Shown one piece after another: positions 11,621-42,729 of a stretch of 64,000 nucleotides of DNA. The notes below the pieces were generated by a model, which searched no databases, had not been told where the DNA came from, and saw only the letters and a program-made list of their open reading frames with translations. The stretch is from positions 310,001-374,000 of the forward strand of contig BCKZ01000012.1 in the NCBI GenBank assembly GCA_001600815.1, written 5' to 3'. The DNA is from Alloascoidea hylecoeti. Its lineage: Eukaryota. The translations under genes and the position numbers were made by a program. Within the stretch, counting starts at the first letter, position 1; each line of letters starts with the position of its first letter.

Positions 11621-11669
11621 TATATATTATGCTATTTTTTTTTGATTAAATTTTGAATTATAGTGGGAA

Positions 11670-24530: not shown

Positions 24531-24688
24531 CCATCCATCGAGTAGGAATATGTCATCATAAAGGTATATATAAATTATATTATAAAGATTTATTAAGTAA
24601 ATTGAACCCAAAATGAAAAATAAAAACTCAAAAGCGTCTATAAAAATCTACAACAACTGTATAGTTACAGTTATATTTAATAAAAACC

Positions 24689-26806
24689 TCATTTCTTAAT
24701 ACTTTCAGTTGGACTATTAGTGCTATCACCTTCTAATTCTTGACCATTAACTTCTTCAATAATTGATTTGCGACTCATATGCACATGTAACTCTTCGGGA
24801 TTTGACTCCTGCCAAGCTTTTAGTTTATAACTTTGACCAGTAACATCCCAATAAATACCTCTCAAAGTATTGTAAATCTCATATCGACCTTGCCATAATG
24901 GGAAAACATTAACAATTAAAGATGAAATAAAGATCCAGATAATTCCAACTACAACCCAACCTCTAAAAAATGGTTTTGAAAAAATATAACCGGAACCATA
25001 CATTGGCATTGGCCAAATAACTAAAAATGCAATTGCCATAAATGCAGTAATTATTCTTGCAACTTTGGCATACTTATCAAGCAATGCTTGTTCCTCTGGT
25101 GTATTCTCTGCTAATACGAATCCATGGCCTTCAACAACATCGTCAATCATTTGTTCTCCTTTTTCGCCATCATTTACACCAAAACCAGCTAATTCTTCAG
25201 TTTCATCTACTTTTGTAATCTTCTTTAATTCATTCCAATCAAATTTATATGGTTTGTATAATGAGATAAGTGGAGAGAAAACCATTGGTGATAATAATGC
25301 AACTACATTACCAATAAGCATTGGATAATCTGAACCAGTTGAAGCAATAGTGAATTCGTTAAATTCAACTTTTGTTCGTACTAACCAACCAATAATAGCA
25401 AAAATGAAACCAAGAATTGGAGAAATTGTAGCAGCCAATCTAGTTTGACGACGGGACATAATTGTCATAGCAGCTGGGAAAACAGCGCCAGAAATAATAA
25501 TTCCCATTAATACATACAAATAACCCATACTAACTCCCTTTTTCCATAATGCAATAGAAACGGCTGCCATCACAATACTAAAACCACAAATAGACATATG
25601 GGATATCCAAATCAATTGTTTACCAGTAGCCTTTGGGTTTATATATCCTTTATAAATATCATATGTGAAAACTGATGAAAAAGCAATAAACTCTGCTGAT
25701 GAAGCTGAAGTAACAGCCATGAAGACAAGTAACAGAGTACAAACACCACCACTTTTACCTAACAAGGCAATAGCAGCACTTGGTAATACAAGTCCAGAAG
25801 AAACTTCATCGGCAGATAGCCTATTAGGGTAAGTTGGAAATGCGGGATTGGATTCTAAGGCTAAGCAAGCTAAACCCATAGTTGTAGATGTTAAAAATGG
25901 AACGGCAAACCATGCAAGACCACCAAGCAAATAACCTGGTAAAGCAGCAACTGGACTTGCAGCTATAGCTTTATTCCAATAACCATTATCTAAGAAGACT
26001 GTTCCAAAATTACCCACGATATTAATGACGAAAAAGATACCACCAGCTTTTGATTTCATGGTTAAATATGAACCATCATGATTTCCAGTAACTGGATGAT
26101 CTTTACCAGCCTGAACTAAAAGATCATAAACCTTTCCAGGTGAACCCAGTTTATCACCTGCTGCATAAGTTGTCAAAGCAAAGATCATGATGATAACAAT
26201 TAAAACAACAGTATGTACATAATCAGTTAAAAATGTAGCTTTTAAACCACCAAAGACTGTATAAATAACAACAAACAAAGGTAAGAGCCAGATTGCAGCA
26301 ATTGTGTTCATACCAGTCACATCAGAAACAACAGCACTACCACCAGCCAACAACATTGCAGTGACCAAGAAGTTTGTTGCAACAGCAAAGAAGCAAAACA
26401 CTATGTGACAAGCAGCACCATATCTAACTTTGACAAGTTCTAAATAGGTATGAGCACCTGGAGCTTTTCTTTTCAATTCAATTGCTAAAGTTGCAAATAA
26501 AATAATCTGTACGGTTGCACCAGACGCATACCAAAAGGCACCAGATACACCATTTTTATAAGCTTGACCAGATGAGGTTAATAAAGTGGCAGCCCAAGTC
26601 CATGAAGATACAACTGCAGCTGCAATAAGACCACTCTTAACAGATCTACCAGCGGTCGCGAATTCTTCAGAAGTGATAATTTCTTTTTGGTATCTTCGTA
26701 GACCAGCTGTAACACCAATCATACCTAAGGCAAACAGAAATCCTAGGCCAATAACAACACCATATCCTACACCTTGAGACAAAATTCCAGCAACTGAGTC
26801 ACCCAT
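24689..26806 (-). CDS. DUR3: Urea/polyamine active transporter (sodium:solute symporter family)
   Basis: SEEFATAGRSVKSGLIAAAVVSSWTWAATLL, GGLKATFLTDYVHT, NIVGNFGTVFLDNGYWNKAIAASP. Confidence 0.96.
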   Translation of the reverse strand: MGDSVAGILSQGVGYGVVIGLGFLFALGMIGVTAGLRRYQKEIITSEEFATAGRSVKSGLIAAAVVSSWTWAATLLTSSGQAYKNGVSGAFWYASGATVQIILFATLAIELKRKAPGAHTYLELVKVRYGAACHIVFCFFAVATNFLVTAMLLAGGSAVVSDVTGMNTIAAIWLLPLFVVIYTVFGGLKATFLTDYVHTVVLIVIIMIFALTTYAAGDKLGSPGKVYDLLVQAGKDHPVTGNHDGSYLTMKSKAGGIFFVINIVGNFGTVFLDNGYWNKAIAASPVAALPGYLLGGLAWFAVPFLTSTTMGLACLALESNPAFPTYPNRLSADEVSSGLVLPSAAIALLGKSGGVCTLLLVFMAVTSASSAEFIAFSSVFTYDIYKGYINPKATGKQLIWISHMSICGFSIVMAAVSIALWKKGVSMGYLYVLMGIIISGAVFPAAMTIMSRRQTRLAATISPILGFIFAIIGWLVRTKVEFNEFTIASTGSDYPMLIGNVVALLSPMVFSPLISLYKPYKFDWNELKKITKVDETEELAGFGVNDGEKGEQMIDDVVEGHGFVLAENTPEEQALLDKYAKVARIITAFMAIAFLVIWPMPMYGSGYIFSKPFFRGWVVVGIIWIFISSLIVNVFPLWQGRYEIYNTLRGIYWDVTGQSYKLKAWQESNPEELHVHMSRKSIIEEVNGQELEGDSTNSPTESIKK

Positions 26807-26956
26807 TATTATAATTTAGAATTGAATATGTAAAAAAATTGTAAAGGGAGGATGCTCAACTATATATACCTATAATCGTAACGTTAATGTTCACCTCAGA
26901 GTCCACCCAAGGTCATACTTTGGAAACAATTTGGTTTCACCGTGTGAAAAAAAAAT

Positions 26957-26978
26957 CTTATCGAAGATAACTGATAAG
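26957..26978. promoter_or_regulatory. Clustered GATA sites (nitrogen catabolite repression UAS) upstream of DUR3
   Basis: CTTATC, GATAA and GATAAG within 22 bp, about 150-170 bp upstream of the ATG; TATATATA near 26861. Confidence 0.7.
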
Positions 26979-29291
26979 CTTAATTATGCAGAATATAGCA
27001 TCCCACAGGTGGTGTTTAAGGACCGGGTAAATTAGTATTGTGAATAAAAAAAAGAAACTTACATTTGTCCGCATACGGGCCGACTATTTCATTTTCCTCA
27101 ACTTTAATAATTTTTATATCATAATATCATGTGGGCCGGTATGTTAGATACGGTACGATATTTCCAATGCTTATTCATATGATTCTCTCTTTTATATTTC
27201 GTTCCACCATTTAACAGTGTTGTAGGTGTGCTATGTACGTGTATTTAGCTAATTATCCCTCCTTAATTGAACCCAAGTCCCCTTTTGATCTGGTTGCGTT
27301 AACGTTTTATCCGATGGTACGTATAACCGACCCGCTCGGGCTCGGTATTGTATTACAAGAAAGCTTTTTTATTGGCTATGCGTCTATGATTGTCGATACT
27401 GTAATTTCTCTATCAATATTTTATTACATACTGTTTGAACTTCTGGAAGCGTCGTGTTTAGTTATGACTTCTAAGGATGATTAACCTCGAATCAAAGATC
27501 AATTGTAGTGCTAATTATAATAGCATAGATTCTATATTAAAATATACCACAGTATAACCCTAAAGCGCATTATAATGTGCAACAACAAAAAGCGACCTGC
27601 TGTAAGATATTACTCATGTGAATTATATCCATATAAAATAGGAATGATATGATATATTCCTTTCTTTGGCAATGCAAAGGAGCTGATCAACCCTATCCTA
27701 TCCTTATAATTAAATTTATTTATAACCCAATCCATTTTACTTGTAAGGATTTACTTATCTCAAGATTCTTAATTACTATAATTTTTCCTACTATAATTAC
27801 AATCATGAACTTTATGCAGGGATTTATATATATTACCGGTCAAAAAAACTGGTAATATTGTAATTATATGTTATAAGCACGCTGCATCCATCAGGATCCT
27901 GAAATGAGATAAGATCTTCATGTTCCAATTAATCTCAACTATTGGTTAGTTGTGCAGATGTCTGCACATTATCTCCAACTTGTTATATTTATTGTTTCAA
28001 TTATTTAACGCCGATGCATGAGAAAACAAATCTACTCTAAAATAGTTATAGAGATCTATAGACTTTGGTTATATATTATCATGATATCATTTGATTATTA
28101 AATATTATAGACGGCGAGAGATTCAATCCATCTATTTATTTCTTGTTTAACATATATATATATATATAAGTTAAAACAGATTACGAACTTATATATGTTA
28201 TGTCTAGGTTTCTTTTTCTATTTACATTTGGTTACAGTTAGAGTAATGATACAGAACGTTAATTATAAATGACTCGTTTAAACTTTAAATTTCATAAAGT
28301 CTTGATGTCGCTTCGATATGTTATGCTTAGAGAAAACTTTTGATCGCTTTAAGCCACCAATAGATCCACAACCAGTGAATAATACAATAGTATATTGAAA
28401 AATCGCTACTAATTGATATCTATTTCTATTTTACTTTTATAATATTAATTAATAAACGTCGAAAAAATAACACAATGCATAAAGTTCTTTAACTACATAT
28501 CAATGTTTTGGTGGTGTGAAGTCACTGTGGAGTCACCGTGAAGTGTGGACAAATTGAACACACACATTTTCAGTATAATTGGAATCTTGAAGAAGAATAA
28601 TTAACATCGCTGTCATACCTTTAGCTAAGTTTACTGATCGGTTCCTATAGCTATTTATTAACTTATAGGTTGTAATTGCTGGTAATTTCTAATGGATTTG
28701 TTAGCCATACATCTCTTTATCGGAAAATCTACACTGGGTTATTTACTTATAATCACGATTCATTAGCAGTGAAATCTTGTAGCTAGTATATAGCTACCGT
28801 ATCACATTATAATTACACTTATTTTGCTAATAAAATTCAAGCAAATAATTATAAAAAGGAAATGTTGAGTAGGATCTGCACTAGAATACATAAAAAGTAA
28901 AACATTTTTTTTTAAAATTCATTAACAAAATTATTTACTGTCTACATATAATATATAAATCTTTAATAAGATACAGGAGATTTCAGAAGTCTTTAGTGTC
29001 GTTCAGCAGGTGGAATTCGTCGTAAAGATCAAGGTACATGGTTTTCACAGTTTCCGTTTCTTACCCTCCAAATGTTTTCTTTTTTCCTCTATTTGAAGTT
29101 TTTCACGTTCTGCTTGGTTTTGTTTTTTCTTTAGTGTTTTAACAACTTCCGACATCTTTTTTTTATGGGTATCTTATCTTTTTTTCTTGGTCTGGTGTTA
29201 CTAGTTACCGATACTTTAATGCATTAAGGTTTCGGCCCAGGTAAATATACATCTCATAAATTATTGATTATGAATGATAATATCGGAAAAC

Positions 29292-29597
29292 TTATTCTTC
29301 TTCATATTCATCAGAATCATAAGTGTAAGATACAGACCTATTTTTATTACGAGTACTTCTTCTTGTTGCACTTTTCCTTTGATAAATGGATATCGATTGT
29401 TGTCTCTTCAATGGCATGGTTTTAGTAGAGACACCATTGTTTTCTTCTTTCGCTACAATTCTTTTCGTAACATTTAGAGCTCTTTTAGAGAAAGCTCTTG
29501 TCAATTTCTTTGAAATATATTCTTTAAATCGATCTAAAATCACATCTGGAATGAAATTTGTTGTTACTATTTATCACTAGCACTTTTTTCTTTTTTG
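29292..29597 (-). pseudogene. PDS5: Duplicated 3' fragment of PDS5
   Basis: About 300 bp closely matching 62095-62410 (FIPDVILDRFKEYISKKLTRAFSKRALNVTKRIV…YDSDEYEEE). Confidence 0.85.
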
Positions 29598-29713
29598 ATG
29601 CCATACTTCTATAGTGATTAATAATATCAGTCCGCACGTGATGCAAATAATTTACCCGTAATTTCGCAACATCCTAACAACTAACTTATACACATTTTCT
29701 TTTCTTTGCCACC

Positions 29714-31662
29714 ATGGAGACTATTACAGACAAATTCAAACAGTACAGCGATGAAATTGAGAAAACATTCAGTGAAAATAGGCATCAGCTATCCGAGGTN
29801 GACCCCAGCATTTTTTTTGGCGACCTTAGTAAGGAGGAAAATTTAAATGAGTTGAGAGCGCTTACTAAAGAAAGTATATTCTTCAATAGCAGTGCACTTG
29901 TATTACAAAACCTTCTGTGCAATTTACCCGTGACAGGTTTGTTTATAACTGGGTATAATAGTATGCCAAATATAGATAGATCAAGTGGTGCTGCTAGAAA
30001 GACTGGATCAAGTGGTGCTGTTAATGTTAATACTAGTTCCGAGATAAATCAAATGGGTGATTATTTTTACACAACTTCATTTATCAATGGTGAGACACTA
30101 AAATTCGAAGCAGAAAGTATTTAGTTAGAGACAGCATTATCGCAATTAGATGCCCCTAGAGTAAAAATGACAATGTGTATAATCTTGGGTGGTATATTGC
30201 GTGTCAAACTTGGCCCTCAAGAAAGATTTTCCGAAGCAGATATATCTCGTTTTATAAGTAATAAATTGCTTGATCCTGGTATTCGTTTTTTCAATAGAAT
30301 AACAGAATCTGGTTTAACTTTGCACGGAGAAAAACCTGGAAAGCTAATGATGGGAACTCGAAAAAGAAATGTATCAACGAGATCAGATTTTACTATTTCT
30401 AGTAAAAATAACCCTGATATTATCACTATTGAGATGAAAATACCTCAATTAGAAAAAATGGTGGGAGGTGTCAGTGGGTTTAACCCCGATGCTAAGTTTA
30501 AAGAAAAAGTTAATCAAGTTATTCAACAAGCACTCACACTCGACTTGGAACACCATTTGGTATTCTAAGTGATGGAGTCTTGATCTTTTTATTCGAAATA
30601 CCATTAGATACAGAATTGAAAGATTATGAGGCAAAAATACCTAATGAAGGATCTAAATATAAGGAACTACCAATCAATTACAAAGTTATAAGAGCTCGTG
30701 AAAACGGAGTTTTTTTAATATTTTTATTGTTTCTGAAAAAAGCAATTGACTTTTTCAATATTCACACTAGAGAAGAAGTAAAAGAAAAATTACAACATTT
30801 TGCGAATTGGTTAGAGAAATCGGTNGAAGAAACCATCATTGCTGAAACTGAATCTCGAGATAAGATGAAAGATTACTTTTTATNTTCTGAGGAATCTGAA
30901 AATGTAGACATCACACGGGATATGAATTTAAGGATAAAATTCAGTTCTTTTCAAGAAACAGATCGGATTCAGCTTTCCAAGCTTCCAGATGAACGTTATC
31001 ATTCACAGGTACTGCGTTGTTCATCACAGCAGTTTTATGAGGCGACTGATAGCAACTCTTTTAACCTTATAAGCGGACGTGAATATATTATTAAGTGGAT
31101 TGACCCGGTCCTTGCTGTTTGTAACAACAAAAGATTGATTAAGTTGGCTGAACCTTGTTACAATTATTACAAAGATGAACTACGAATCTACATGGTGTTA
31201 TCAGAAAAAACAAATTTAGAGGNCATAGTGCCTAAGCTTCATGGAATAGGTTTTTGTACCTTATTTGGTGATGATGGTGAGACCGTTAGTGCAGGACTAT
31301 TCCTGTTACTAGATTACATTGATGGTAANGAACCTGATTTTTCAGATGATAAAATATACGAAAAGGCAATGTCAAATTTGAAAAAGTTACACGATGCTGA
31401 CATAACTCATGGGGACATTAGACTCCCAAACATAAGGGTAACAGAGAAACAATATGTGTACTTTTTCGATTTTGGTTTAAGTAGCACAACTAAAGGAGAT
31501 AAAACAAGAATTACTGATATTAAAAGCAAAAGGGATGAGGAAAAATTATACCGACTCAGGGAAGAAGCATTAAAAGCAAAAGAATACTCAGCACCAATAA
31601 TACAAGAAAGGGAAGAAANAATGGGAGAGGAAGGAAGAAAAAGAAGAAGATTAAATCCATAA
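29714..31662 (+). pseudogene. Disrupted PD-(D/E)XK-like nuclease + protein-kinase-like fusion gene
   Basis: ORFs 29714 and 30167 share a frame, separated only by TAG at 30122-30124; one frameshift near 30545 joins ORF 30580. Motifs: RSDF…IITIEMK…NQVIQQA…FGILSDG (restriction-endonuclease fold), then IVPKLHG, LLLDYIDG, HGDIRLPNI and FFDFG (kinase). Confidence 0.75.
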
Positions 31663-32027
31663 CCATAATTTACTATTTTTTTTATGATTTTACTTTATGT
31701 TATTTTATTTTATGAATATTACATTATACCTTATATGAATTATAGATTATAATCTATAAACTTAATAGCTAGTCTAATTGCAAACTTCAAAAATCATTTT
31801 AAGACATAGAAAATGTACCGATTGCAAACTGATAAGAAGAACTTGAAATACCAAAGAAAAACACGAACTATTACTTTTGATATACCCAATAAACAATGAA
31901 AAGAAAATGAAGAAGAAGAATCAATTTATATAATAAATGACAATACATTTTTAAACAAGATTAAAATACTCTAATAAATTCAGAATTAATTATAGCCGCT
32001 TACAACTTCCTTATCTATATCTATATA

Positions 32028-34703
32028 CTATACCATATTATTGTTTTGAAGGGCAATGCTTTTCGTCATATTATTAACCTTATAGATCCCTACAAGTTGT
32101 TGTGCTAACTCGAACATATTATTTCTCAAAGAAATAACAACAAATTGAGCATTTTTGGTTCGTTCTTTAATATAATTTGCAACAATTGAAACATTTCGAA
32201 AATCCAAAGCAGCATCTATTTCATCCATTACATACAAAGGTGTGGGTTTATATTTATGAAGTGCAAAAACTAAGGCCAAAGAGCTAAGAGTTTTTTCACC
32301 GCCTGAAAGATTCGAAATATTTCTCCAACTTTTCTTTGGCGGCATCACACTAAAAAGAATTCCTTCTGAAAATGGGTCAAGACTGTCCACAAGCTCAAGT
32401 TCTGCGTTACCTCCCATTGTAATCATTTGATACATATTTTTGAGTGTAGTTGTGATTGTATTTAATCCAACCATGAATTCATCCAGCCTTCTCTTTTTAA
32501 GATCGTCACTCATTTTCTTGACCAATTCACGTTCTTCAACTGCTTCGTTCAAGTCTGTTTTACGAGACACAAATTCTCTAGAACGTCTAGCATACTCTTC
32601 TAACACTGAAATATCAACAGTTTCTTCTAGCTTTTCCTCTAGCCGTTTTATTTCGGATTTTAAGGTACTGGCATTTATTTGATCGAGCTCATCTAAAGAT
32701 ATTTCTAGTGATGCTTGAGGTGAAGAACTTTCTTCAGTGTCCATCATAACATCCTCATCTTCATTCTGAATACTTGTTTCTTGGACGTTACCAATTAGTT
32801 CATCTAAATTATGAAGTTTCAAAGACTCGAATTGACTTTTATAGTGATGAATGGCGCGCTTGTAATCTTTCATATTAGTCACATGTTGTTCGATTTTATT
32901 TTCAATCTCAATTTCGCTAGATCTCAATTCGGCAATNAGCTTCTTTTCAGATTCCAATTTATCTTTTGCAGACTCAAGTGCTTCTTTTCTATCATCACGT
33001 TCATCTAGAATTTTAGAATACTCTTTCTCTAACAGAGCTGCCTTTTGAAATTTCTCTTCCACACTTTGTTCCATTTTTAACAATTGGTTATCAAGGGCAA
33101 CAACTTCCTTTTCATTTTCTGAAAAGATTTTAGTATGTTTCTTTAATTCATTTTGGTTCTTGGTATATGTGACAACCTCACTAGACATTTTNTCGTTAAG
33201 CAATTCTAGATGTTGTTGAATACTATCAACTTTTGACTTCTGCATTCTAAGTTTGATACCACCAACTTTCATAATTTTTTCTTCTAGCTCCTTGATTTTG
33301 TTATCCCTATCTTCGGTTTCTTCTTTTAGTTTTTCAAGCTCATGTTCTAATGCAGAAACTTTGGCCTCTGCCTCTTGAATGGCTTTATCATCTACTAAAT
33401 TTGTTTTAGCTTCTTCTTTAAATTCCTTGGTTTGTTTTTGAGCGGCTGATAATGATTTAGCTAAAGAATCAATTTCAATATTAATTTTGGAGGCGGATAA
33501 TTCAATTTCAGGCTGTCTATCTTTTAAGAAATTTAGCGCTTTAATCATTTTGTTGTACGTTTCAGTAGCTTTATCAAACAATTCTTGTTTCTCTTGGAGT
33601 TCTTGTTCAAGTTGAGATACAGCCTCCTCAGAAAACCCAGAATTTGACTTTTTGTTCATGGCACCTGAAATTTTTTGAGCACCACCGGATAAAGTACCTG
33701 ATTTATCAATCAATTTACCATCCAAACTAACAACCCTCCAANGTTTCGCGCCATAAGCAATACGGTTTGCTTGCTGTAAATCTTTAGCCACCAATGTATC
33801 CTGCAAAACGCTGTAAAATGCTGGAGCAAATGCAGGGTCTTTTGGAGTTACCAAGTCAAAAAGTCGTGGAACACCTTCAGGGGTATTAATTGGACCTAAA
33901 TTTCTTTTTGGTAACTTATCGAGTAAGATAAATCTTGATCGACCTAAATTGTTCTTTCTTAGATAATCGATACATTTTTGACCAACATCCACAGTATCAA
34001 NAACCATATTATTCAATGCAGGACAAGCTGTTGAAATAGCTACATCATATTTATCATCAATTGTGCCTAAATCGCCAAGTCTACCATTGAAGCCATCCAA
34101 TCTTCCAGATGCTTTAAGATGAGACAAACCAGCCAAAACTTGATTTCTTGTTTTTGTATTTGTAAGGGGTCCTTTAGCTTCATTTGTTTTCTGTCTAGAT
34201 TCGGTCAATTCAGTCTTTAATTCTTTCAACTTAGCATTCGCGTGTGAACATTCATTATTACCAAGATCAATTTGATTTTTGTTATGTTCGAATTCTTTCT
34301 TCAAAGCCNCAAGTTCACGTTCTTTACTTCTTCCTTGCTTCATGGTATCTTGTTCTACAGCTAGAGATTCATTTATATTATTAATGAGCGAATCTTTTTT
34401 TTCTTTTAACATATCAACATTGCTTTGAGAGACAGCTACTTCTGAAGACTTTTGTGTGATTTTTTCTCTCCATGGTTCACCTTCTTTAACCAGCTTATCA
34501 ATTTGAAGGGTTATATCCTTAGTTTTGTCCTTCAAGCTATTTCTAATTTCCTCAAGCTCTTGCTTTTCGACCTCAAAGTTTTTTATGAGGTCTTGGATTT
34601 CTTGTTTAACTTGATTTGTTTCTGTTTCTTGATTTTTCAAATAAGAACTTGCTTCATTAATAATCTTCTGTGAAGCATCCATGTTCTCCACATAATTTAC
34701 CAT
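32028..34703 (-). CDS. SMC4: Condensin subunit Smc4, 5'-truncated (coiled coil, hinge and C-terminal head half only)
   Basis: Hinge GRLGDLGTIDDKYDVAISTACP; signature LSGGEKTLSSLALVFALH; Walker B YVMDEIDAALDFRNVSIV; no Walker A/N-terminal exon seen upstream. Confidence 0.85.
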   Translation of the reverse strand: MVNYVENMDASQKIINEASSYLKNQETETNQVKQEIQDLIKNFEVEKQELEEIRNSLKDKTKDITLQIDKLVKEGEPWREKITQKSSEVAVSQSNVDMLKEKKDSLINNINESLAVEQDTMKQGRSKERELXALKKEFEHNKNQIDLGNNECSHANAKLKELKTELTESRQKTNEAKGPLTNTKTRNQVLAGLSHLKASGRLDGFNGRLGDLGTIDDKYDVAISTACPALNNMVXDTVDVGQKCIDYLRKNNLGRSRFILLDKLPKRNLGPINTPEGVPRLFDLVTPKDPAFAPAFYSVLQDTLVAKDLQQANRIAYGAKXWRVVSLDGKLIDKSGTLSGGAQKISGAMNKKSNSGFSEEAVSQLEQELQEKQELFDKATETYNKMIKALNFLKDRQPEIELSASKINIEIDSLAKSLSAAQKQTKEFKEEAKTNLVDDKAIQEAEAKVSALEHELEKLKEETEDRDNKIKELEEKIMKVGGIKLRMQKSKVDSIQQHLELLNXKMSSEVVTYTKNQNELKKHTKIFSENEKEVVALDNQLLKMEQSVEEKFQKAALLEKEYSKILDERDDRKEALESAKDKLESEKKXIAELRSSEIEIENKIEQHVTNMKDYKRAIHHYKSQFESLKLHNLDELIGNVQETSIQNEDEDVMMDTEESSSPQASLEISLDELDQINASTLKSEIKRLEEKLEETVDISVLEEYARRSREFVSRKTDLNEAVEERELVKKMSDDLKKRRLDEFMVGLNTITTTLKNMYQMITMGGNAELELVDSLDPFSEGILFSVMPPKKSWRNISNLSGGEKTLSSLALVFALHKYKPTPLYVMDEIDAALDFRNVSIVANYIKERTKNAQFVVISLRNNMFELAQQLVGIYKVNNMTKSIALQNNNMV

Positions 34704-35890
34704 TTCCACAATTTCATCAATGTTAATTAGAATAGGCACTATTTTTCAAATACTTTCACACATAGGTTGGCTCTAAAAGATGGCCCATGCAAGTAGTCTA
34801 TTAAAATGTGCGTTTTTCATGGCTCTGGAACATCTAAGAAGTAGCGCCGATGGGTGTCATAGATGAGAAGCCAGCTCTTCAGAAATCGAATATTCTTCCA
34901 CAAAATCAGCCAACCACTTCATATTTCGTTTCTCAGTTTCTTTCGTGAGTCATGTATTGTGCAATATACGTATTTTCAATCGGTTTAATTGTGCTTTTTT
35001 AAAACGAGAGGGTATGTTTTTGGAGATTAATTAGAGGTTTAAACACTTATCATATTTCAGCTACCTGGATATATAGATACATAATTTCTGACCAGGGCGA
35101 CGTTTCTTTCTCATGATGTATTAGTTCAGTTATGAAGTATGGTACCAAAAAACATTCGGAATTGGGTTTTTAGGTAGTGGCTCCAAGTAATAAAGTGGTG
35201 TGTATGATGCAAATTGTTATACAGAAGGAACTAATATTGTAACTGTTTTACCTGTGGTTATCAAGACAATAATCAGAACTGTTTAATTCATGCACTTCAG
35301 TTTTGAGTCCGTGTAATGGGAGTTTTCCAATTTTCGCTATTTCTTTTGTTTTTACATTTTCAATACTTATATTAAATGGGGGTAAGGACTATAGAGGTGC
35401 TATCAAATGATATATAAAAGCAATTTTCACCATTAGGTACCGGTATAAGTCTAAAGTATGAGAACTATTAAGGCATCTTACTTTACAACAATCCAGTGAA
35501 CCCACCCACAATAGTTAATTTCTTTGTATGTTTTTAGTTTAGTTATAGCTTGTTTTGTGGATTCCATAATATTTGTCGAGGAATTCCCATATTTTATATA
35601 TACATGTAGAAGTATCGTAAAGATATATATATTTGTTTTCCAAGAGTTTTAGAGCAATTACGTGTTTAAAGAAGGACATCAATCTGATCATGAGTGAATC
35701 AACTGCCCAAATTAGTCAACATATTCAACATGGTATCCGGTACTGTAAACAGTAATAATGGAAAAGCAATCTATGATGGAACCGCTGGACATGCAATTCC
35801 TTCTATAGTATTTCTTTCTTAATGTGAATTTAACTATTAGATTCTCTTATAGTTCTAATTAGTATTAAATGCTCTAGTATTAATTGTAAA

Positions 35891-37006
35891 TCAATTATCC
35901 TTTTTGAGTACTTTCTCTTGCCTTAACCCCGATTCAAATCGTATCCCAAGTCCAATATTGGCAGAATTATTCTTATGATCCAGTTCTCCACAAAACAAAA
36001 AGCGTCCTGTCCCAGAGACTTTTGTCTCAAAAAATACACCAACTTTACCTTTTGAATCTATTTGTGTCTTTAACAAGGATTGTCGAAAGTCATACCTTGC
36101 AGCGATGCTTGTTTTTCCTTTTGAAATTATATCATAATAAATAGGTTGTCCTTCAACTAGACCTGGACCTTCTGCAACAACTGTTTTAATCTCACCAGCC
36201 AAATTTGTTTCTACTCCCGCGCCAAAATTTTCCGACACTTTTTTCCAGAAAGTCATTGTCATTTCCCCATGATCTCTAATTTGTGTAGTAGCAACCCAAT
36301 TGTCTTTGGTATATCTACTAATATATGTACATGTCGTACATGTTTTATGTGAGTTGTAAATTGAGGAATTTAATAGGGACTCCGTGGTCAACTCTGAAGG
36401 TGACAGTGAATTTATTGTCGTAATTGTTTCCAGACCAACTGACCATCTTGAAGTTAACAACTGAAAGTATGACCCCGATATGGCACCTGTAATCGCATTA
36501 TTTATCCATTGAATATTTAGTAACTTTATATTCAAAGAAACGTGAGATCTATTAATTTCATGCTGGAATAGCCATAATAACTGTTGGTTTTGTGAAAGGT
36601 TCACTTTTAGCTTACTGGAATTATACTTATTCCCACAGCTGATAAATCCAGTATATTTTAATTCTTTAAAAGTAGAAATATTTCCATGTAATTGAATTTT
36701 ATCATTCGAATAAGAGGTATGAAATATATAAGGTAAACTATAGCTAGATGGATATTTTGAGTCAATTGAAAAACAATGTGTGGTTTGAAATATGGGATTT
36801 AACCCGAAAACATGAGTTAATTCAGCTCTAAGTCCAGTAAATAAGTTGTGATCTATGAAGAGATGTTGCGAAACATTATTTATGTGATCTAATGAGCCCA
36901 ATGTTAGCTGTTTTATTCTTATATTGCCAATTGAATGCAATTGATTGTTATGATCTATATCGGTTAGAAGATTTATCCCAGACTGTTGTTTTCTGGAGAA
37001 ATTCAT
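35891..37006 (-). CDS. TOM40: Divergent Tom40-like outer-membrane beta-barrel
   Basis: LFTGLRAELTHVFGLNPIFQTTHCFSI, FWKKVSENFGAGVET, ARYDFRQSLLKTQIDSKGKVGVF and LFCGELDH…IGLGIRFE align in order with Tom40 motifs, with many substitutions. Confidence 0.8.
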   Translation of the reverse strand: MNFSRKQQSGINLLTDIDHNNQLHSIGNIRIKQLTLGSLDHINNVSQHLFIDHNLFTGLRAELTHVFGLNPIFQTTHCFSIDSKYPSSYSLPYIFHTSYSNDKIQLHGNISTFKELKYTGFISCGNKYNSSKLKVNLSQNQQLLWLFQHEINRSHVSLNIKLLNIQWINNAITGAISGSYFQLLTSRWSVGLETITTINSLSPSELTTESLLNSSIYNSHKTCTTCTYISRYTKDNWVATTQIRDHGEMTMTFWKKVSENFGAGVETNLAGEIKTVVAEGPGLVEGQPIYYDIISKGKTSIAARYDFRQSLLKTQIDSKGKVGVFFETKVSGTGRFLFCGELDHKNNSANIGLGIRFESGLRQEKVLKKDN

Positions 37007-37329
37007 AATTGTAGAAGGTTGCTAACTTGCTTTATCATCTAAAAATATTAAGTTGTATGCACAACACCACTGTAATACTTAGTTGGGAAAATCTAAACTA
37101 TGTCATAGGACCTCCGAAAACAAAACCAATTTTTTAAATATATACCATAACAACTCACTGGATTTCCACTTTGTGAGATTTCACGTAATTGTGATTCTAA
37201 GAAATTACTACTGACTTAGCTAATTGAGGTATGTAGTATCAATAAACATGACCTCTCAATTATTGAAATAGGTATATTGCACCTTTAACTGTGTAGTTCA
37301 CTGCAAATAAATAGGTCAACGACCTTTCT

Positions 37330-37660
37330 GACATGAAGTCTGGATCTCTAAGATTATTATTATGGACTAAAATTTGGAAAGGAAGTAGTAATCCATTGTA
37401 TAGAGTGATTCAATGGGGATCCTAATAGCAGGAAAATAGGAGCCACCGTTCATACATAGAATTTTTGTAAGAGGCATTTGATTAGATTGATGAGGGTGCC
37501 ATATTCAAGCTGGATAGGGCATCTATCTATAAAGCTAAAATCACAATGAATTGGTTTCGTGAGAAGAAGATAGGCCGTCGGAGTGACCACCTTCTCCAGA
37601 CCTGAATCTAATTGAGGGCATTTGGAATATTCTCATAAAAGTTCATGGCAGGAATTACGA
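37330..37660 (+). mobile_element. Tc1/mariner DDE transposase relic
   Basis: 37501 onward: IFKLDRASIYKAKITMNWF…E*PP-SPDLNLIEGIWNILIK, a decayed FQQDNAPxH…WPPxSPDLNPIExxW motif. Confidence 0.8.
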
Positions 37661-38186
37661 ATATGATTCCATTATATTGTAAAGGTGAAGAAATCCCTTT
37701 CAAAATTAGTTAGCCGATTCTCTTCATCCACTAATGTAGATTGCCCACTATTTATTCGACCTTCGAAAGTTAAACGGGTTAACCCGGCCTCGCTTGCACC
37801 TGTCAGATTGAGGTATTATGATCAAGAAGGTTTATTGCCATGACTTTTCGTATCCTCACTTCCTTGTCTCTTGATATAAAAGCTCTGGGGGATCTTTCAA
37901 AACCATCGTTGGTGGTTGTAGAGTATATAATGAAAAAAAAACTACCGGTTCTATGCTTTTCAGAAGGGTTGACAAGATCCCTGTTCCTGCTCAGATCGTT
38001 GGTTCTTATCGTTATTTCTCCTCTTTCCACATGTTTACATAATATAAATAGACTTAAATATCCCTTAATAATAGATTCATTTAATTCATAACAACTCCCA
38101 ATTTAAACTCACCTCTTTACTAAAGTCGGTTAAGCCAACTAAGTTTCATTCATTTGATAAAACAAAAATTATAATTAAAGAATAAG

Positions 38187-38963
38187 ATGAGTGTCTCAAC
38201 ACGTATTTCTATTCAATGGCTCCCAGAAAATGCTTCAGAGCCAACAGAAACTTTTGTAGTCTCTTCCCGGGGTGGTCATTTCGTGGATATTCGGAATCTT
38301 CGAGATACTTTAGGACAACAATATGCTAATTTCCATTATGATTGGGCTATTAGTGGGCACGATGAGGTTCTAGGCATAGATCCAACTACCAAATTATTGA
38401 GTATCAAATTTCATCATGAATTGGATTCGAAGTATATTGTTGCGAAATCTCAATCTTTGAATGATCCGAGCATTACGGACGACAAGTTAGAACAGTTAAC
38501 AGCACCAGACGTCGGTCACTTCAAGACTCTAGAGAATGGCGATAGACATGAATCTGGAGAGATGATGAATGCTGATACTGGGAAGATTACTCCATATATT
38601 GAAATTTGGAGATCTTTGGATGCTTTGACATCAACACCTAAGAATCTCATCAGGGAGACGGAAGATAATCTGCCCAAAGCCAAATCGATTGTTTTTGTTC
38701 CAGTAGATGAATCAAGACATAAAGGTAAACTGGTAAGATTCGGGAACTGGATACAGGCCCTAATCACAGATGAGTCAAAAGGAGTACAACCAGACAATAT
38801 CAATCTCACTGTTCTACGAGCAGTGTTGAATGAGGGAAATCACTGGGTGACATATAATAGCTTTGGAGATCATTTGGACCAATTTCCTTTGAATTTCGAA
38901 GGAGCAGAAGGGGAAACATTTACTTTTGGTGGAGTTGAATGGAAAGTTATTGAAAATTCATAA
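38187..38963 (+). CDS. HRI1: Hri1 family protein
   Basis: STRISIQWLPENASEPT…GHFVDIR…DWAISG…E.G.M.N..TG.ITPYIEIWRSLD…R.GNWIQ. Confidence 0.85.
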   Translation: MSVSTRISIQWLPENASEPTETFVVSSRGGHFVDIRNLRDTLGQQYANFHYDWAISGHDEVLGIDPTTKLLSIKFHHELDSKYIVAKSQSLNDPSITDDKLEQLTAPDVGHFKTLENGDRHESGEMMNADTGKITPYIEIWRSLDALTSTPKNLIRETEDNLPKAKSIVFVPVDESRHKGKLVRFGNWIQALITDESKGVQPDNINLTVLRAVLNEGNHWVTYNSFGDHLDQFPLNFEGAEGETFTFGGVEWKVIENS

Positions 38964-39281
38964 CATTCATGGTACAATTATTTTTCTAGTTATAAACATA
39001 GACTATATCTGTAAGTATATCTAATAATAAGAAGAATAAGGAAATGCGTTAAGTTTGTATACTATGTGTATAGTTAAACAAACAAAACTGCTAATAAAAA
39101 ACACACACACATGTCTATTTATCCTTTAGCTGGTTAAACCATTTTAATGTTACCCGGATTGTCAGCCATTATCCGATGCAGCACGTGATATATATTACTG
39201 CATGCAATTGAAATTGTCTTACAATTTGATTTGATCACCTCCAAATTTAAACCTATCTTATAATTATAGCCTAGTTTCGAA

Positions 39282-39963
39282 ATGAATGGAACAGATACTA
39301 TGTATGTTATTGCTTTTACATGGAATATAAAGTGTAGCTGAGCTAACATTTTCCCTCTATAAATCAGTATATTTCTATTCGCAGTATTGGGAAACTTCTT
39401 TAATTTGTTTGCCAATGTATTTTTCATAGTGAACTACACTGATCTGGGTATGTGATAATTGATAGCGATGAAATCCTATTTAACTAACATGAACAAAATC
39501 TAGAAACTGGTAAGCTCGGCGATGGTGATTTAACATTTTACTTAACCCGCTAAATATTTAACTAATCAAAACTAGATTACACAAATCCCATCGACATGTG
39601 TAACACCATCAATAGAGTATGTATGCTTTTTATAATAGCTGTGATTTTGGTTTCCCTGAAACTCAGAGTACTGACATTACATATAACTAGCTTATCCTTC
39701 CCGATATAATCGTTCAAGCCTTTATCTCTGTTATGCTCCTTCTCAATGCTCACTACTACAGATTCTTATTAGGGTTGCCTTTGGTCTTATGGAATGCTTA
39801 CTCTATAATACAAGACAGACATTTATTAGACCCAACAAATATTTTTCGAACATTAAGGTCACATAAGATTGAAAGTATGGCTAAACTTATTTATCATTTC
39901 GTTTTATTTTTTGCTTATCTTTATGGATTAGTTAGCGCACTTGTCGAAGGTCTCGGAGAATAA
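39282..39963 (+). CDS. ERV14: Cornichon-family ER cargo receptor (Erv14/Erv15-like), 5 exons including a 6-nt microexon
   Basis: Spliced product MNGTDTIIFLFAVLGNFFNLFANVFFIVNYTDLETDYTNPIDMCNTINRLILPD…LLDPTNIFRTLRSHKIESMAKLIYH; all introns GT-AG. Confidence 0.85.
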
Positions 39964-40296
39964 GAATTTTTCATGCATACATAAATATATGATTTTATAT
40001 TAAACTATTGAAAAATGAAAGATTTGAAATTATAAGTGTCACTATTGTAATGTAAAACTTTTTTTGAGATTTTAATTGATATTTATCAAAAGCATGAATT
40101 GGTTTACTATAGATTAGATATTCCTATAAATTTAAAATTACTTTACGATTTAGAAGGGGATTTTCCATTCCTTAATTACGTTTCTTTTTTCTTTCTTGCA
40201 ATTTCTATAAGTACATGCTTTTGTTAAATATTATACAGATAAATATCTTTTATGCTCCATTCTTCCTCTTTTCTCTTCGGAAGTTTTCTGCTTCAA

Positions 40297-42582
40297 CTAA
40301 AATGCTCCATTTGGAATTTCTAACTCTGATAACAACTTCACTAACTTTGCAGGATCGAATATTGATCCTGGCATACTTTCCGCTGAGGGTAATAGTCTTA
40401 GTAAATCGTAAATTTCATCATTGACAAAGGGTTCCGACAATTGGGTCTCATTAAAATCTTGTGAAAATTGTAGGTCGGTATTATTCTCCTTAAATCGTTT
40501 TGACGGTGGCTGCTCGGGATTTTCAGAGTCCTCAATTACATTCCCATTAGTCTTCAATTCACCATGACCAATATACTTATAACCCAGGTCATAATTATAG
40601 ATCAGATTAACATTAAATTTTGTATACCTAATTGTAAACAAGCTTAATTCAATATTCTCAATGTTTGTAAAATAGGGCTCAACAGTATCTTTTGACAATA
40701 TTGCTTTTGGTCCTAATAAACTGTCTTCTGTAAATAATTTCATATACCTTTCTTGTAACTTTAAAACTGCACCTAAATCTCCGTAATTTGCTTCATAATC
40801 AATGAATTGTTCATAAAGAGGTTTAGCATCTTGTGGACTTAATTTACTAACAGTTTTTTCAAACAATGCTCTAGCATTTGTATCATCACCAATTAAAATT
40901 AAAAATTTCATATATTCCTGAATATATTCAGTATTTTCCGAAAATCGTCTCATTCCAAAGTCAAATACTTTAAAGGAAACATGAGATTTATTATCCGTAT
41001 GATACTCCATTAATGCCGATTGAACATATATATGATATGTAATAAATTCATTTTTTCGAGCTTCTCCAAAAATTTTACGAGCAGCATCCAACCCTTCCGA
41101 TCTTTTAATCGCACGCATATAAAAAACATAAACAAGTGTTATATTAACGCTTAATTCCTTTCGATATTCTGTTTCGGTTTTCTCAGCTTCATCTGCTAGT
41201 TCCAATGCCGCAAGTTTCTTTTTTAATTGTGTGATCAGAGAACTATAAGCTGTCCTAACAGCCTCAGTATTTCCTTGCTGTTCGTATACTTCCGCAACAT
41301 AAAATGTCAGAGCATATGATGTTGGATTAGCCGCGATACCATCTGTAATGAATTTCATACCTAACTCCTTATTTTCTATTGAGAAAGTATATTGTGTAGC
41401 ATCATACCACATTTCAGGTACAAACCGGTTGCTACTTAAAGCCTGTTGATATGCATATATAACTCTCTTTTGTACTTCTTTTGGATCATTTAACTCCAAA
41501 GGATTGGTTAACTCCCATTTTATCCATTTTTTCCATGCTTTTTGTGACTGTATCTCTGAGGATGTCCAAGAAGGTAATCTTGGAGATTTGTGTCTATTAA
41601 ATTGTTTGAATAAATTTGTAAGCTCTTTGAAACCAGAACGAGCAGCCATATATGCAGCTGATTTTTCACTTATAAATTTTCTAGCAGTTGATTTATTAAT
41701 GTTATTTTCAAATAAGTTATAACCCTGCCACAACAGTTCTAGATTATTTAGAGGAATACACACAGCACTTCGATACGTTTTCCTTAATAAATCCATCTTT
41801 TGTTGATCTTCCCAACCAGAGATCGGTTTCCAAGATCTAATAAATTCAATATAGTCTCCCCAAATTAAGCCGCTTTCTTCATCAATACCAATTCGATCAA
41901 TAGCAAATTCAAAAGCTCTAGTAATAATACCTCTCGCCTTTTCTCCACCAGTTGTTATATTATTCACACGACGGACATAACCAATATAATGTTGCCATAG
42001 TTTCACGTCATAAACAACTAAAAGACATTTTGCAAATAATTGTTCGACTTTTTGAAATTCATTTTGTGATAATTCATATTCAATATATCCAATCCATTGA
42101 TCTGAGTTAGTTGTGAAGATTTCTAAAAACTGATCATAAACACTTTGTATTTCTTCTTGTTTATCTTTTTCACGGACCACTGTAATTAAGTGTAACCAGG
42201 TATCTAGGTCATATTTATCTATTGATAATTTATCCTCAAGCTGTCCAATTAAATCCTTAGGTAATCTTTTTCTCTTTGTAGGTTTCTTTACATTTTTAGA
42301 AGTTGTGGCAGTTGGATCTACAGTTATCTTGTTACTTAGTGCATCCCTAGATTGATCTAAAGCAGAAACAGCTGGAGATCCACTTTTCAAGAAAGAGGGT
42401 GTATTCCCACCATCATCACTCACAATAGCATCCAAATGAGATTTTGTATGTTCTTTTTGTGGCGGAATACCTGATTCTGTTGGATTATAATCATCATCAG
42501 TATCATCCTGTGAAATGCTCAAATCTTCTATCACGGTAGCTCGTGTGTCTACCTGTGTGCTCACCTTTGTGGAATCCGACAT
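40297..42582 (-). CDS. RNA14: mRNA 3'-end processing factor Rna14 (HAT repeats)
   Basis: WEDQQKMDLLRKTYRSAVCIPLNNLELLWQGY, WIKWELTNPL, YMRAIKRSEGLDAARKIF, YVQSALMEYH. Confidence 0.93.
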   Translation of the reverse strand: MSDSTKVSTQVDTRATVIEDLSISQDDTDDDYNPTESGIPPQKEHTKSHLDAIVSDDGGNTPSFLKSGSPAVSALDQSRDALSNKITVDPTATTSKNVKKPTKRKRLPKDLIGQLEDKLSIDKYDLDTWLHLITVVREKDKQEEIQSVYDQFLEIFTTNSDQWIGYIEYELSQNEFQKVEQLFAKCLLVVYDVKLWQHYIGYVRRVNNITTGGEKARGIITRAFEFAIDRIGIDEESGLIWGDYIEFIRSWKPISGWEDQQKMDLLRKTYRSAVCIPLNNLELLWQGYNLFENNINKSTARKFISEKSAAYMAARSGFKELTNLFKQFNRHKSPRLPSWTSSEIQSQKAWKKWIKWELTNPLELNDPKEVQKRVIYAYQQALSSNRFVPEMWYDATQYTFSIENKELGMKFITDGIAANPTSYALTFYVAEVYEQQGNTEAVRTAYSSLITQLKKKLAALELADEAEKTETEYRKELSVNITLVYVFYMRAIKRSEGLDAARKIFGEARKNEFITYHIYVQSALMEYHTDNKSHVSFKVFDFGMRRFSENTEYIQEYMKFLILIGDDTNARALFEKTVSKLSPQDAKPLYEQFIDYEANYGDLGAVLKLQERYMKLFTEDSLLGPKAILSKDTVEPYFTNIENIELSLFTIRYTKFNVNLIYNYDLGYKYIGHGELKTNGNVIEDSENPEQPPSKRFKENNTDLQFSQDFNETQLSEPFVNDEIYDLLRLLPSAESMPGSIFDPAKLVKLLSELEIPNGAF

Positions 42583-42729
42583 TTGGTATTAAAGATGAAG
42601 AGAGAACCTTGTTGTAATAAATATTCATCTCATGCTGATATTTACCCGGTAGGAAATGTACACATTAGAGCGGTGATGTTTTATTCTTCAAAACTCTTAT
42701 TTAAAGTAGTTATTTATAATATTAAGGCT

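What the first reader, a model, noticed from the sequence alone, without database searches (positions are those of the whole stretch)
32028..34740. SMC4 frame open for about 890 codons but missing the N-terminal ATPase half
Seen: Smc4 similarity starts abruptly in the N-terminal coiled coil (MDASQKIINEAS…SLKDKTKDI…EPW). Upstream sequence through 38 kb shows no Walker A exon and no convincing YAG acceptor at the junction, while hinge, signature motif and Walker B are intact. Known: SMC heads need both N- and C-terminal halves, and the hinge mediates Smc2-Smc4 pairing. Inference: (a) a truncated duplicate that could bind Smc2 as a dominant-negative or modifier, by analogy to the truncated Sd-RanGAP duplicate in Drosophila Segregation Distorter; (b) a split SMC4 with the N-half elsewhere; or (c) a recent rearrangement or misassembly.
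Basis: partly seen in the sequence, partly recalled or inferred. Interest (0 to 1): 0.75.

Follow-up and report, generated by a model that had tools for sequence, protein, structure and literature searches.

The report
Amplified repeat carrying a headless SMC4 fragment
The headless SMC4 reading frame is real, but it is one copy of a recently multiplied 5.6-kb patchwork of gene pieces in a yeast genome, most likely a dead gene fragment and not a split or newly functional condensin gene.

Summary
Window 32031-34745(-) is an open frame of 905 codons, 884 from the ATG at 34682. It is Smc4 from the distal N-arm coiled coil through hinge, signature motif and Walker B. No Smc4 N-terminal head lies anywhere in the 64 kb.

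The frame is not a lone truncated gene. A 45-codon relic of the Smc4 coiled coil that directly precedes the break lies 2.8 kb downstream of the stop, at 29037-29185(-). Segment 29037-34683 is therefore a circular permutation of a donor unit. It holds the Smc4 3' part, a broken kinase-like gene, a 94% copy of the PDS5 3' end and the Smc4 relic. CATG bounds it on both sides.

Contigs of four public runs from three studies put this segment at about 6-8 times the depth of the adjoining contigs. They hold the unbroken relic-to-C Smc4 sequence and a second truncation junction at 34525. They also hold a variant with an in-frame 354-nt deletion whose depth differs between runs. One run has a contig that bridges the window's junction at single-copy depth.

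Best reading: a circular or tandem amplicon integrated at a 4-bp microhomology, with the Smc4 piece as a passenger pseudogene. A split gene is unlikely. Expression is untested.

The parts
29037..34683 (-). Segment S, a 5647-bp mosaic repeat unit (5643 bp between the two CATG). Read on the minus strand it holds the Smc4 C-part, a kinase-like pseudogene, a PDS5 3' fragment and the Smc4 relic n.
   Evidence: Circular permutation shown. Contig depth is 6-8 times the flank in X1, X3 and X4. Eleven of the window's 62 single Ns fall in 29800-34309, and none fall in 17373-29799 or 34310-43598.
32031..34682 (-). Smc4 C-part: 884 codons from the ATG at 34682, covering the distal N-arm coiled coil, hinge, C-arm and C-terminal head half.
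34683..34745 (-). 21 in-frame codons upstream of the ATG that are not Smc4. They belong to the sequence flanking the insertion.
   Evidence: Smc4 homology stops at 34682. The contiguous Smc4 form diverges from the window behind 34683.
29037..29185 (-). Relic n, about 45 codons of the Smc4 coiled coil that directly precede the break (..EREKLQIEEKRKHLEGKKRKL*). It carries a 1-nt deletion that shifts the frame into a stop.
   Evidence: tblastn hits from 7 of 9 Smc4 queries. It aligns in register just before C. The 30-letter read consensus upstream of C matches 29041-29069 at 29 of 30 with one gap, against a best score elsewhere of 14.
29037..29040 (.). CATG at the downstream end of S.
   Evidence: Sequence.
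34680..34683 (.). CATG at the upstream end of S. It contains the ATG of the frame.
   Evidence: Sequence. The loose end begins behind 34683.
29291..29598 (-). Copy of the 3' end of PDS5 (window 62096-62408), 294 of 314 identical with 7 gap positions.
   Evidence: PDS5 is identified.
29678..31659 (+). Kinase-like gene K, broken here by TAG in place of Trp at 30122-30124, a frameshift at 30541/30544 and one missing 9-residue repeat.
   Evidence: 97% and 92% identity to the intact 584-aa P0241. Only the C-terminal catalytic-loop region matches Pkinase, RIO or Bud32 models.
33144..33497 (-). 354 nt (codons 417-534 of the frame) that are missing in another set of copies, with 7 nt of microhomology at the joint.
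   Evidence: Joint 33143>33498 in 4 of 4 runs, with depth 54.5/64.3/52.6/2.9. The undeleted contig has depth 52/11.5/21.1. Frame checked.
34883..35668 (.). Flanking stretch that recurs elsewhere in the genome with other neighbours.
   Evidence: Four contigs with unlike continuations at 34883 and four at 35668, in each of X1, X3 and X4.

Best explanation
The frame is the 3' two-thirds of Smc4, carried as a passenger in a young, amplified mosaic repeat of 5.6 kb. The donor unit was [relic n, Smc4 C-part, kinase-like gene K, PDS5 tail fragment] in circular or tandemly repeated form. In the window, one unit sits in a gene-free interval between a eukaryotic-porin gene and a solute-symporter gene. 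It is opened at the n|C boundary and flanked by the same CATG on both sides. That is what a single crossover between a circle (or a template switch on a tandem donor) and the chromosome at a 4-bp microhomology produces. Further copies exist, some with a 354-nt internal deletion and some truncated at another point. The Smc4 piece lacks Walker A, the Q-loop and the proximal N-arm, so it cannot form an ATPase head. It is most likely a non-functional gene fragment that is still open only because it is young. A full-length Smc4 is inferred to lie elsewhere in the genome. Shown: the anatomy, the multi-copy depth, the contiguous n-C form and the junction in one run. Inferred: the circular or tandem origin, the lack of function and the existence of the full-length gene.
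For: The anatomy is a permutation. Smc4 homology starts at 34682. The residues just before it (P0123 415-449) map to 29051-29155(-), downstream of the stop. This holds for 7 of 9 queries.

The contiguous form exists in reads. A loose end behind 34683 in X3, X4 and X5 equals window 29041-29069 apart from one base. Read together with 34683 downwards it encodes EGKKRKSVKTMDASQKI. Both ends of S are CATG.

Depth points to many copies. Single contigs inside S have depth 131.8-176.9 in X1, 58.9-75.7 in X3 and 63.9-89.3 in X4. The long flank contigs have 21.3, 7.79 and 9.81. The X1 contig over 34654-34908 has 0 mismatches and depth 22.3, and it bridges the junction.

There are other variants. A second junction at 34525 appears in X1, X3 and X4 and matches nothing in the window. 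A 354-nt deletion variant is at 2.6, 8.3 and 5.4 times flank depth.

The unit shows decay. K has a stop and a frameshift relative to P0241. Relic n has a 1-nt deletion. The PDS5 piece is a 94% fragment. All 5 fixed differences between the window and the majority contigs in C are non-synonymous. Of the 5 N sites, 3 can only be non-synonymous.

Single Ns cluster inside S. Passages of PMC4352087 state that break-point reads matching the opposite end imply a circle or a tandem repeat, and that eccDNA reintegrated as tandem repeats in yeast.
Against: No whole genome was available, so no full-length Smc4 and no N-terminal half was actually seen. The contiguous form is shown only for up to 123 nt upstream of the ATG.

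The bridging contig is listed for X1 only, and X1 may be the assembly's own sample. Contig depth is a rough proxy, and the tool warns against reading it as copy number. Tandem, dispersed and episomal copies cannot be told apart.

At the invariant Thr of LSGGEKT the window keeps Thr (15 of 15 homologues), while every contig laid there in 4 runs reads Ile. So the window copy is in some respects better preserved than the bulk, and which state the working gene has is unknown. The frame is open for 2.7 kb and has an ATG. A homology search over lengths 497-1584 aa found no near-identical Smc4 protein (best 54%), although a K paralogue of apparently the same species is in NCBI. This is left unexplained.
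Confidence: 0.62

Rival explanations
1. A functional headless Smc4. The fragment is expressed from the flanking sequence and pairs with Smc2 through its hinge, and with the kleisin through its C-terminal head half. It would act as a condensin modifier or poison.
For: The frame is open for 884 codons with an ATG and 21 open codons upstream. Hinge, signature motif and Walker B are intact, and the invariant Thr819 and Tyr331 are kept in the window copy. The 354-nt deletion in other copies is in frame. The amplification is kept in three studies, including a metagenome. The intact Smc2 partner gene lies 18 kb away.
Against: There is no expression data. Eight or nine of 10 variable sites are non-synonymous. 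The copies are about 99.8% alike, so an open frame is expected by chance. The rest of the unit is decayed. The deletion removes a conserved coiled-coil stretch (one search shows KIMKVGGIKLRMQKSKVDS-type conservation). The lost proximal N-arm would leave about 160 residues of the C-arm unpaired, an inference from the solved yeast Smc4 register.
Confidence: 0.12
2. Assembly artefact. A multi-copy element or episome was collapsed or misjoined into this contig, so the truncation at 34683 is not a chromosomal structure.
For: The segment is multi-copy and carries 11 ambiguous bases, and such repeats are where assemblers fail. The bridging contig is listed only for X1, possibly the same data as the assembly. 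The junction at 29037 was not checked.
Against: The X1 contig over 34654-34908 has 0 mismatches at depth 22.3, the same as the flank's 21.3. Chimeric reads would not give that. In X1, X3 and X4 the summed bin depths are highest through the bins ending 34694/34948 and drop to about a third in the 34949-35202 bin; this is summed depth that includes look-alike contigs. A 4-bp overlap is too short to cause an assembler misjoin. Other apparent gene breaks in the window are ordinary short introns, not errors.
Confidence: 0.1
3. Capture and spread by a mobile element. The kinase-like K family is, or rides on, a mobile element that picked up pieces of Smc4 and PDS5 by transduction or template switching. 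The copies are dispersed, not a circle or tandem array.
For: The unit is a mosaic of unrelated gene fragments. Two different 5' truncation points of the Smc4 piece exist. K relatives of 82-97% identity sit on several small contigs of 819-8009 bp, as repeats do. A repeated stretch lies beside the insertion.
Against: No transposase, reverse transcriptase, terminal repeat or tRNA was found in or at the ends of S. K looks like an atypical kinase, not a transposition enzyme. The identical donor position at both ends is more simply explained by a circular or tandem donor.
Confidence: 0.13
4. Split SMC4. The N-half is encoded elsewhere and the two polypeptides assemble through the coiled coil.
For: No N-terminal half lies in the window. 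The break falls inside the coiled coil, where two chains could in principle pair.
Against: Contigs in three runs read without a break from the upstream coiled coil into MDASQK. From recalled literature, not read here: cutting an SMC arm opens the ring and inactivates cohesin and condensin.
Confidence: 0.03

Closest known systems
eccDNA-derived amplification with chromosomal reintegration in yeast (XylA locus, PMC4352087; passages read)
   Same: Break-point sequences match the opposite end of the unit. Copy number is raised. There are no long flanking repeats. Integration follows a circular stage.
   Different: There the amplicon carried a selected gene and a proven ARS in a laboratory strain. 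Here it carries broken genes in wild material. No circle was shown. The S. cerevisiae ARS consensus is absent from S. The integration site is foreign to the donor locus.
Duplicated (non-processed) pseudogenes and segmental duplications
   Same: A 5'-truncated copy of an essential gene sits with neighbouring DNA. Non-synonymous changes are relaxed. Adjacent fragments are decayed.
   Different: The copy is circularly permuted, bounded by the same 4 bp, multi-copy, and has variants whose depth differs between runs.
Sd-RanGAP truncated duplicate of Drosophila Segregation Distorter
   Same: A truncated duplicate of an essential gene that could in principle interfere with the parent pathway.
   Different: Sd-RanGAP is expressed and enzymatically active. 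Here neither expression nor activity is shown, and the ATPase head cannot form.
CAP-G condensin pseudogene on grasshopper B chromosomes (PMC5732253; title and start of abstract seen)
   Same: A condensin-subunit gene fragment carried on selfish or repeated DNA.
   Different: Different subunit and a different carrier (a B chromosome). That one is reported as transcribed, and it is in an animal.
Gene-fragment capture by Helitrons and Pack-MULEs (recalled)
   Same: A mosaic of pieces of unrelated host genes, multiplied.
   Different: No terminal inverted repeats, hairpin or transposase were seen. That element class is not known to me from budding yeasts.

Membership tests
Smc4 (condensin SMC subunit) | Orthology to Smc4 and not to Smc1, Smc2 or Smc3 | tested here: met
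   723 bits to yeast Smc4, 163 to Smc1A and 69 to Smc2. Identity to fungal Smc4 is 50-54%.
Smc4 (condensin SMC subunit) | N-terminal head half with Walker A (P-loop) and Q-loop | tested here: not met
   Pfam SMC_N covers only profile positions 51-219. The N-termini of nine Smc4 queries hit only the Smc2 gene at 56.1-56.4 kb.
Smc4 (condensin SMC subunit) | Hinge domain | tested here: met
   PF06470 at residues 217-330, E 4.4e-27.
Smc4 (condensin SMC subunit) | C-terminal head half with signature motif, Walker B and D-loop | tested here: met
   LSGGEKT...LYVMDEIDAALD is in the frame. It aligns to the Smc4 head structure 6qj2_A.
Smc4 (condensin SMC subunit) | Two full antiparallel coiled-coil arms | tested here: not met
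   The frame starts at about residue 491 of the 1418 in yeast Smc4, so the proximal N-arm is missing.
Insertion derived from a circular or tandem amplicon | Inserted unit is a circular permutation of the donor order | tested here: met
   Relic n (Smc4 residues about 415-450) lies downstream of C (from about residue 454) on the same strand.
Insertion derived from a circular or tandem amplicon | Both ends fall at the same donor position, with a short shared microhomology | tested here: met
   CATG at 29037-29040 and at 34680-34683.
Insertion derived from a circular or tandem amplicon | Reads hold the joined (contiguous) form and show raised copy number | tested here: met
   Loose end at 34683 in X3, X4 and X5. 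Contig depth is 6-8 times the flank in X1, X3 and X4. Depth from contigs is approximate.
Insertion derived from a circular or tandem amplicon | Physical circle, or a tandem array resolved by long molecules | not testable with these tools
Insertion derived from a circular or tandem amplicon | Empty target site, or the second junction, confirmed in reads | not tested
The single call went to 30885-38500.
Processed (retro-) pseudogene | Only transcribed sequence of one gene, a poly(A) tail and target-site duplication | tested here: not met
   The unit includes a gene on the opposite strand, intergenic DNA and a PDS5 piece. No poly(A) follows the stop (for coordinates; for the sequence of 28300-29700).

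The most novel reading that the evidence does not exclude
The 5.6-kb unit is a selfish amplicon that persists in wild populations as an episome or unstable array. Its headless Smc4 (hinge plus C-head, able to take Smc2 and the kleisin out of productive condensin) is expressed and distorts chromosome segregation. The fast-evolving orphan kinase-like gene K would act as its partner. That would be a condensin-based drive or poison system in a yeast.
Probability: 0.05. Interest if true: 0.85.

Novelty: new member of a known kind. Interest (0 to 1): 0.4.

Why it matters
It settles what looked like a puzzling half of an essential gene. The organism does not appear to run condensin on a split or headless Smc4. 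The frame is a by-product of a recent amplification.

The anatomy is a clean natural example of the footprint expected from reintegration of circular or tandemly repeated DNA. The unit is permuted, both ends fall at the same donor position, and they share 4 bp. It occurs in a wild yeast, and the relative depth of its variants differs between runs.

It also warns annotators that this locus, and the repeat's kinase-like gene family, will be collapsed or fragmented in short-read assemblies. If the fragment were expressed, it would be a ready-made natural test of what a headless SMC does in vivo.

Tried and rejected
- Whole-genome search for a full copy or a separate N-half: no genome is held for this window.
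- Earlier notes of the scan: none exist for this genome.
- Metagenome scan with a 30-mer from the start of C: 0 matches.
- Protein-guided metagenome scan: 20 loci. Nineteen have a best segment of at most 51% identity, and one short locus (L019) has a 69% segment. None is from the same species. No K, porin, HRI1 or symporter homologue lies beside Smc4 there.
- RNA evidence: no RNA holder was listed, so nothing can be said on expression.
- tRNA genes (0 in the window), Rfam families (0 in 26-38.5 kb), and direct or inverted repeats at the ends of S (only short chance-level pairs) gave no mobile-element signature.
- S. cerevisiae ARS consensus: 6 matches in the window against 5.8 expected, none inside S. 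This is uninformative for a distant yeast.
- My early idea that the assembly is error-ridden, based on the split ORFs of Smc2, Tom37 and PDS5, was rejected. The breaks looked at in Smc2 and Tom37 are short introns with GTAATG/GTGAGT starts, branch-like sites and TAG ends. The PDS5 break was not examined.
- An intron joining n to C was rejected, because n lies 3' of C on the same strand.
- A gene in the flanks: no ORF of 45 codons or more with any evident identity in 26816-29036.
- A spliced upstream exon cannot be excluded without RNA. A weak branch-like TAATTAAC followed by an AG three bases before the ATG is present.
- Literature: searches for smc4/truncated/duplicate/pseudogene and smc4/headless/hinge/dominant negative/condensin listed no natural headless Smc4 duplicate. 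Only titles and abstract starts were seen.
Full report
WHAT IS THERE. The window is from an intron-bearing ascomycete yeast with about 34% G+C and genes such as HRI1, RNA14/Suf, Tom37, Smc2 and PDS5. On the minus strand a frame is open from 34745 to 32031, 905 codons, with the stop at 32028-32030. Pfam finds the SMC hinge at residues 217-330 and only the C-terminal portion of the SMC_N head model. The signature motif and Walker B (LSGGEKT...LYVMDEIDAALD) are intact in the translation. Against solved structures the frame is Smc4: 723 bits to yeast Smc4 starting at its residue 496 of 1418, with Smc1 at 163 and Smc2 at 69 bits.

Nine full-length fungal Smc4 proteins (P0121, P0122, P0123, P0130, P0133, P0140, P0148, P0144, P0158) came from a search whose best hit was 54% identical. 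All nine begin to align at window 34601-34682 and at their own residues 369-562. The ATG at 34682 opens MDASQK. The 21 codons before it are not Smc4. The heads of these nine queries match only 56166-56426, which is the first exon of a separate, complete Smc2 gene (52850-56414, 1069 bits to yeast Smc2).

Seven of the nine queries also hit 29048-29197 on the minus strand, with exactly the residues that precede the break, for example P0123 415-449 and P0133 449-494. E-values were 0.01-1.0 against the whole window and 3e-4 to 0.03 against a 2-kb subject. P0148 and P0158 did not hit. In a MAFFT alignment the peptide ..EREKLQIEEKRKHLEGKKRK falls on the conserved block ..E(R/I)EKVx(I/V)EE(K/R)KK(S/H)L(E/D)xK(K/R)KK, and C begins about four columns later. 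This relic (n) lies 2.8 kb downstream of the stop of C on the same strand, so cis-splicing cannot join them. The order C ... n is a circular permutation of the natural order n-C.

WHAT LIES BETWEEN. On the plus strand, 29678-31659 holds a gene I call K. Its only close relative in 5.8 billion proteins is P0241, 584 aa, from an 8009-bp contig. The window copy is 97% (360/372) and 92% (196/213) identical to it. It has TAG where P0241 has Trp, a frameshift at 30541/30544, and lacks one 9-residue repeat, so it is a pseudogene. Only the region around HGDIRLPN matches kinase-type models (Pkinase, RIO1, Bud32, all below the curated cut-offs).

A full HMMER pass over 1.84 billion representatives gave 39 hits. 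Four of them are fragments 67-88% identical (three looked up lie on NCBI contigs of 819-6536 bp). One is a 32% relative, and there are 25-28% relatives that include a Debaryomyces hansenii protein, DEHA2D12672p; a second D. hansenii protein, DEHA2D12650p, shares its 90%-identity cluster. So K belongs to a small, fast-diverging yeast family whose copies sit on repeat-like small contigs. Next to K, 29291-29598 is a 294/314-identical copy, with 7 gap positions, of the 3' end of the PDS5 gene that lies at 62096-62408 in the same window. The unit is thus a patchwork: Smc4 3' part, dead K, PDS5 tail, Smc4 relic.

READS. No genome is held for the window. Ten public runs were listed, and six hold part of the stretch. 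I laid Logan contigs of X1 and X3 (same organism label, two studies) and of X4 and X5 (a wood-decay metagenome study) on 30885-38500. Five results matter.

- Depth. Single contigs inside the unit have word depth 131.8, 145.6 and 176.9 (X1), 64.4, 58.9 and 75.7 (X3), and 69.7, 63.9 and 89.3 (X4). The long flank contigs at 36-38.5 kb have 21.3, 7.79 and 9.81. That is 6-8 fold in three studies. The tool warns that contig depth is not a copy number, so I use it only as a rough ratio within a run.
- The window's junction. A 255-nt X1 contig covers 34654-34908 without a mismatch at depth 22.3. The window's junction therefore exists in reads at flank-like depth. No such record is listed for X3 or X4, the table is cut, and X1 may be the assembly's own sample.
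- The unbroken form. In X3, X4 and X5 a contig that follows C up to 34683 continues for 41-123 letters with another sequence. Its printed 30 letters align to window 29041-29069 at 29/30 with one 1-nt gap, against a best score elsewhere in the window of 14. Read with 34683 downwards they encode EGKKRKSVKTMDASQKI. So the unbroken n-C Smc4 sequence exists in these samples, and the window's relic differs from it by a 1-nt deletion that creates ..KKRKL-stop.
- A second truncation. At 34525 another contig in X1, X3 and X4 leaves C for a sequence found nowhere in the window, with a stop directly before TKDITLQI. This is a second kind of 5' truncation.
- A deletion variant. A joint 33143>33498 removes 354 nt (codons 417-534, in frame, 7 nt of microhomology). 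It is seen in all four runs at depth 54.5/64.3/52.6/2.9, against 52/11.5/21.1 for the undeleted contig. The share of deleted copies thus differs between runs.

The stretch 34883-35668 next to the insertion has four contigs with unlike continuations at each end in X1, X3 and X4, so it too recurs elsewhere.

THE ENDS. The unit runs from 34683 to 29037, and both ends read CATG (34680-34683 and 29037-29040). The contiguous form reads ..AAAACCATGGAT... The window reads ..GAGAACATGGAT.. at one end and ..AAAACCATGTACC.. at the other. An insertion that starts and stops at the same donor position needs a donor in which n follows K again, that is, a circle or a tandem repeat. One crossover, or a template switch, at a 4-bp microhomology would give exactly this. 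[quoted passage not shown] Whether the further copies here are tandem at this locus, dispersed or episomal cannot be told from contigs.

The window's 62 single Ns fit a collapsed or multi-copy unit. Eleven lie in 29800-34309, and none lie in the 12.4 kb before or the 9.3 kb after. However, N-rich blocks elsewhere (91-17372 and 43599-63366) are not explained by this.

IS THE SMC4 PIECE UNDER SELECTION? Between the window and the majority contigs, five sites differ in C, and all five change the residue: T819I, S369T, Y331H, Q202K and P193S. Of the five N sites, one is silent whatever the base, one may be silent, and three must change the residue. Against 15 homologues the window keeps the invariant Thr of LSGGEKT and the conserved Tyr331, while it departs from the usual Lys and Ser at 202 and 193. 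Every contig laid at 32290 reads the Ile state. I cannot say which state the working gene has, because contigs drop minor variants.

The copies differ by only about 0.2% in C, so an open 2.7-kb frame is what chance predicts. It is no evidence of function. The deleted variant lacks a conserved arm segment (KIMKVGGIKLRMQKSKVDS; compare). Without Walker A, the Q-loop and the proximal N-arm the product could not form an ATPase head. It could still, in principle, pair with Smc2 at the hinge. No RNA run was available, so expression is open.

VERDICT. The frame is real and truncated as described. It is one unit of a young, amplified, permuted patchwork repeat, and most likely a passenger pseudogene. 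The split-gene reading is unlikely, a simple misjoin is unlikely, and a functional headless Smc4 is possible but unsupported. Three things were not shown: a full-length Smc4 gene, the junction at 29037 in reads, and the physical form of the extra copies.

One loose thread remains. A length-restricted homology search (497-1584 aa) found no near-identical Smc4 protein, although K paralogues of apparently the same species are in NCBI. The likeliest reason is that the repeat breaks or suppresses gene models in that assembly, but I could not check it.

Noticed in passing
window 52850-56414 (-): A complete Smc2 gene, the partner of Smc4, lies 18 kb from the Smc4 fragment. Its first exon (56055-56414) is separated from the rest by a short intron (GTAATG ... 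CATCTAAC ... TTATTAG).
   Followed up: partly
window 62096-63725 (-) and 29291-29598 (-): PDS5 lies at the window's end. A 94% copy of its last roughly 95 codons plus 29 nt of 3' flank sits inside the repeat unit. It is much more diverged than the Smc4 part is from its other copies.
   Followed up: partly
window 29678-31659 (+); P0241, P0242, P0244, P0245, P0243/P0281, P0257: The kinase-like gene K belongs to a small, fast-diverging yeast family. Near-identical fragments lie on several small contigs. Distant relatives (25-28% identity) include Debaryomyces hansenii DEHA2D12672p, whose cluster also holds DEHA2D12650p. The N-terminal two-thirds has no known domain.
   Followed up: partly
window 1-64000: The 62 single Ns come in blocks (91-17372, 29800-34309, 43599-63366) separated by N-free blocks. 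This looks like heterozygous and homozygous tracts, or collapsed repeats. Only the middle block was examined.
   Followed up: partly
window 34883-35668: A roughly 785-bp stretch beside the insertion recurs elsewhere: four contigs with different continuations at each end in three runs. No LTR-like ends or coding capacity were seen.
   Followed up: partly
window 34726-34883 and 34937-34995: Contigs at single-copy depth skip 156 nt (X1, X4) and 57 nt (X1, X3, X4) of the flank next to the junction. These may be length alleles or paralogous copies of the flank.
   Followed up: no
window 34684-34745 with 28983-29036 (-): If the unit is removed at the CATG, the flanks join in frame (..EIVEMVNYVENM|YLDLYDEFHLLNDTKDF-stop). 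This may be chance or a disrupted small exon.
   Followed up: no
window 15987-21858: 5.9 kb without any ORF of 120 codons or more. G+C falls to 26% in 20-22 kb.
   Followed up: no
window 42514-43724 (+): Tom37/Sam37 is split by a short intron (GTGAGT ... GCTAATC ... CCTTAG) and lies next to RNA14/Suf (40300-42588).
   Followed up: partly
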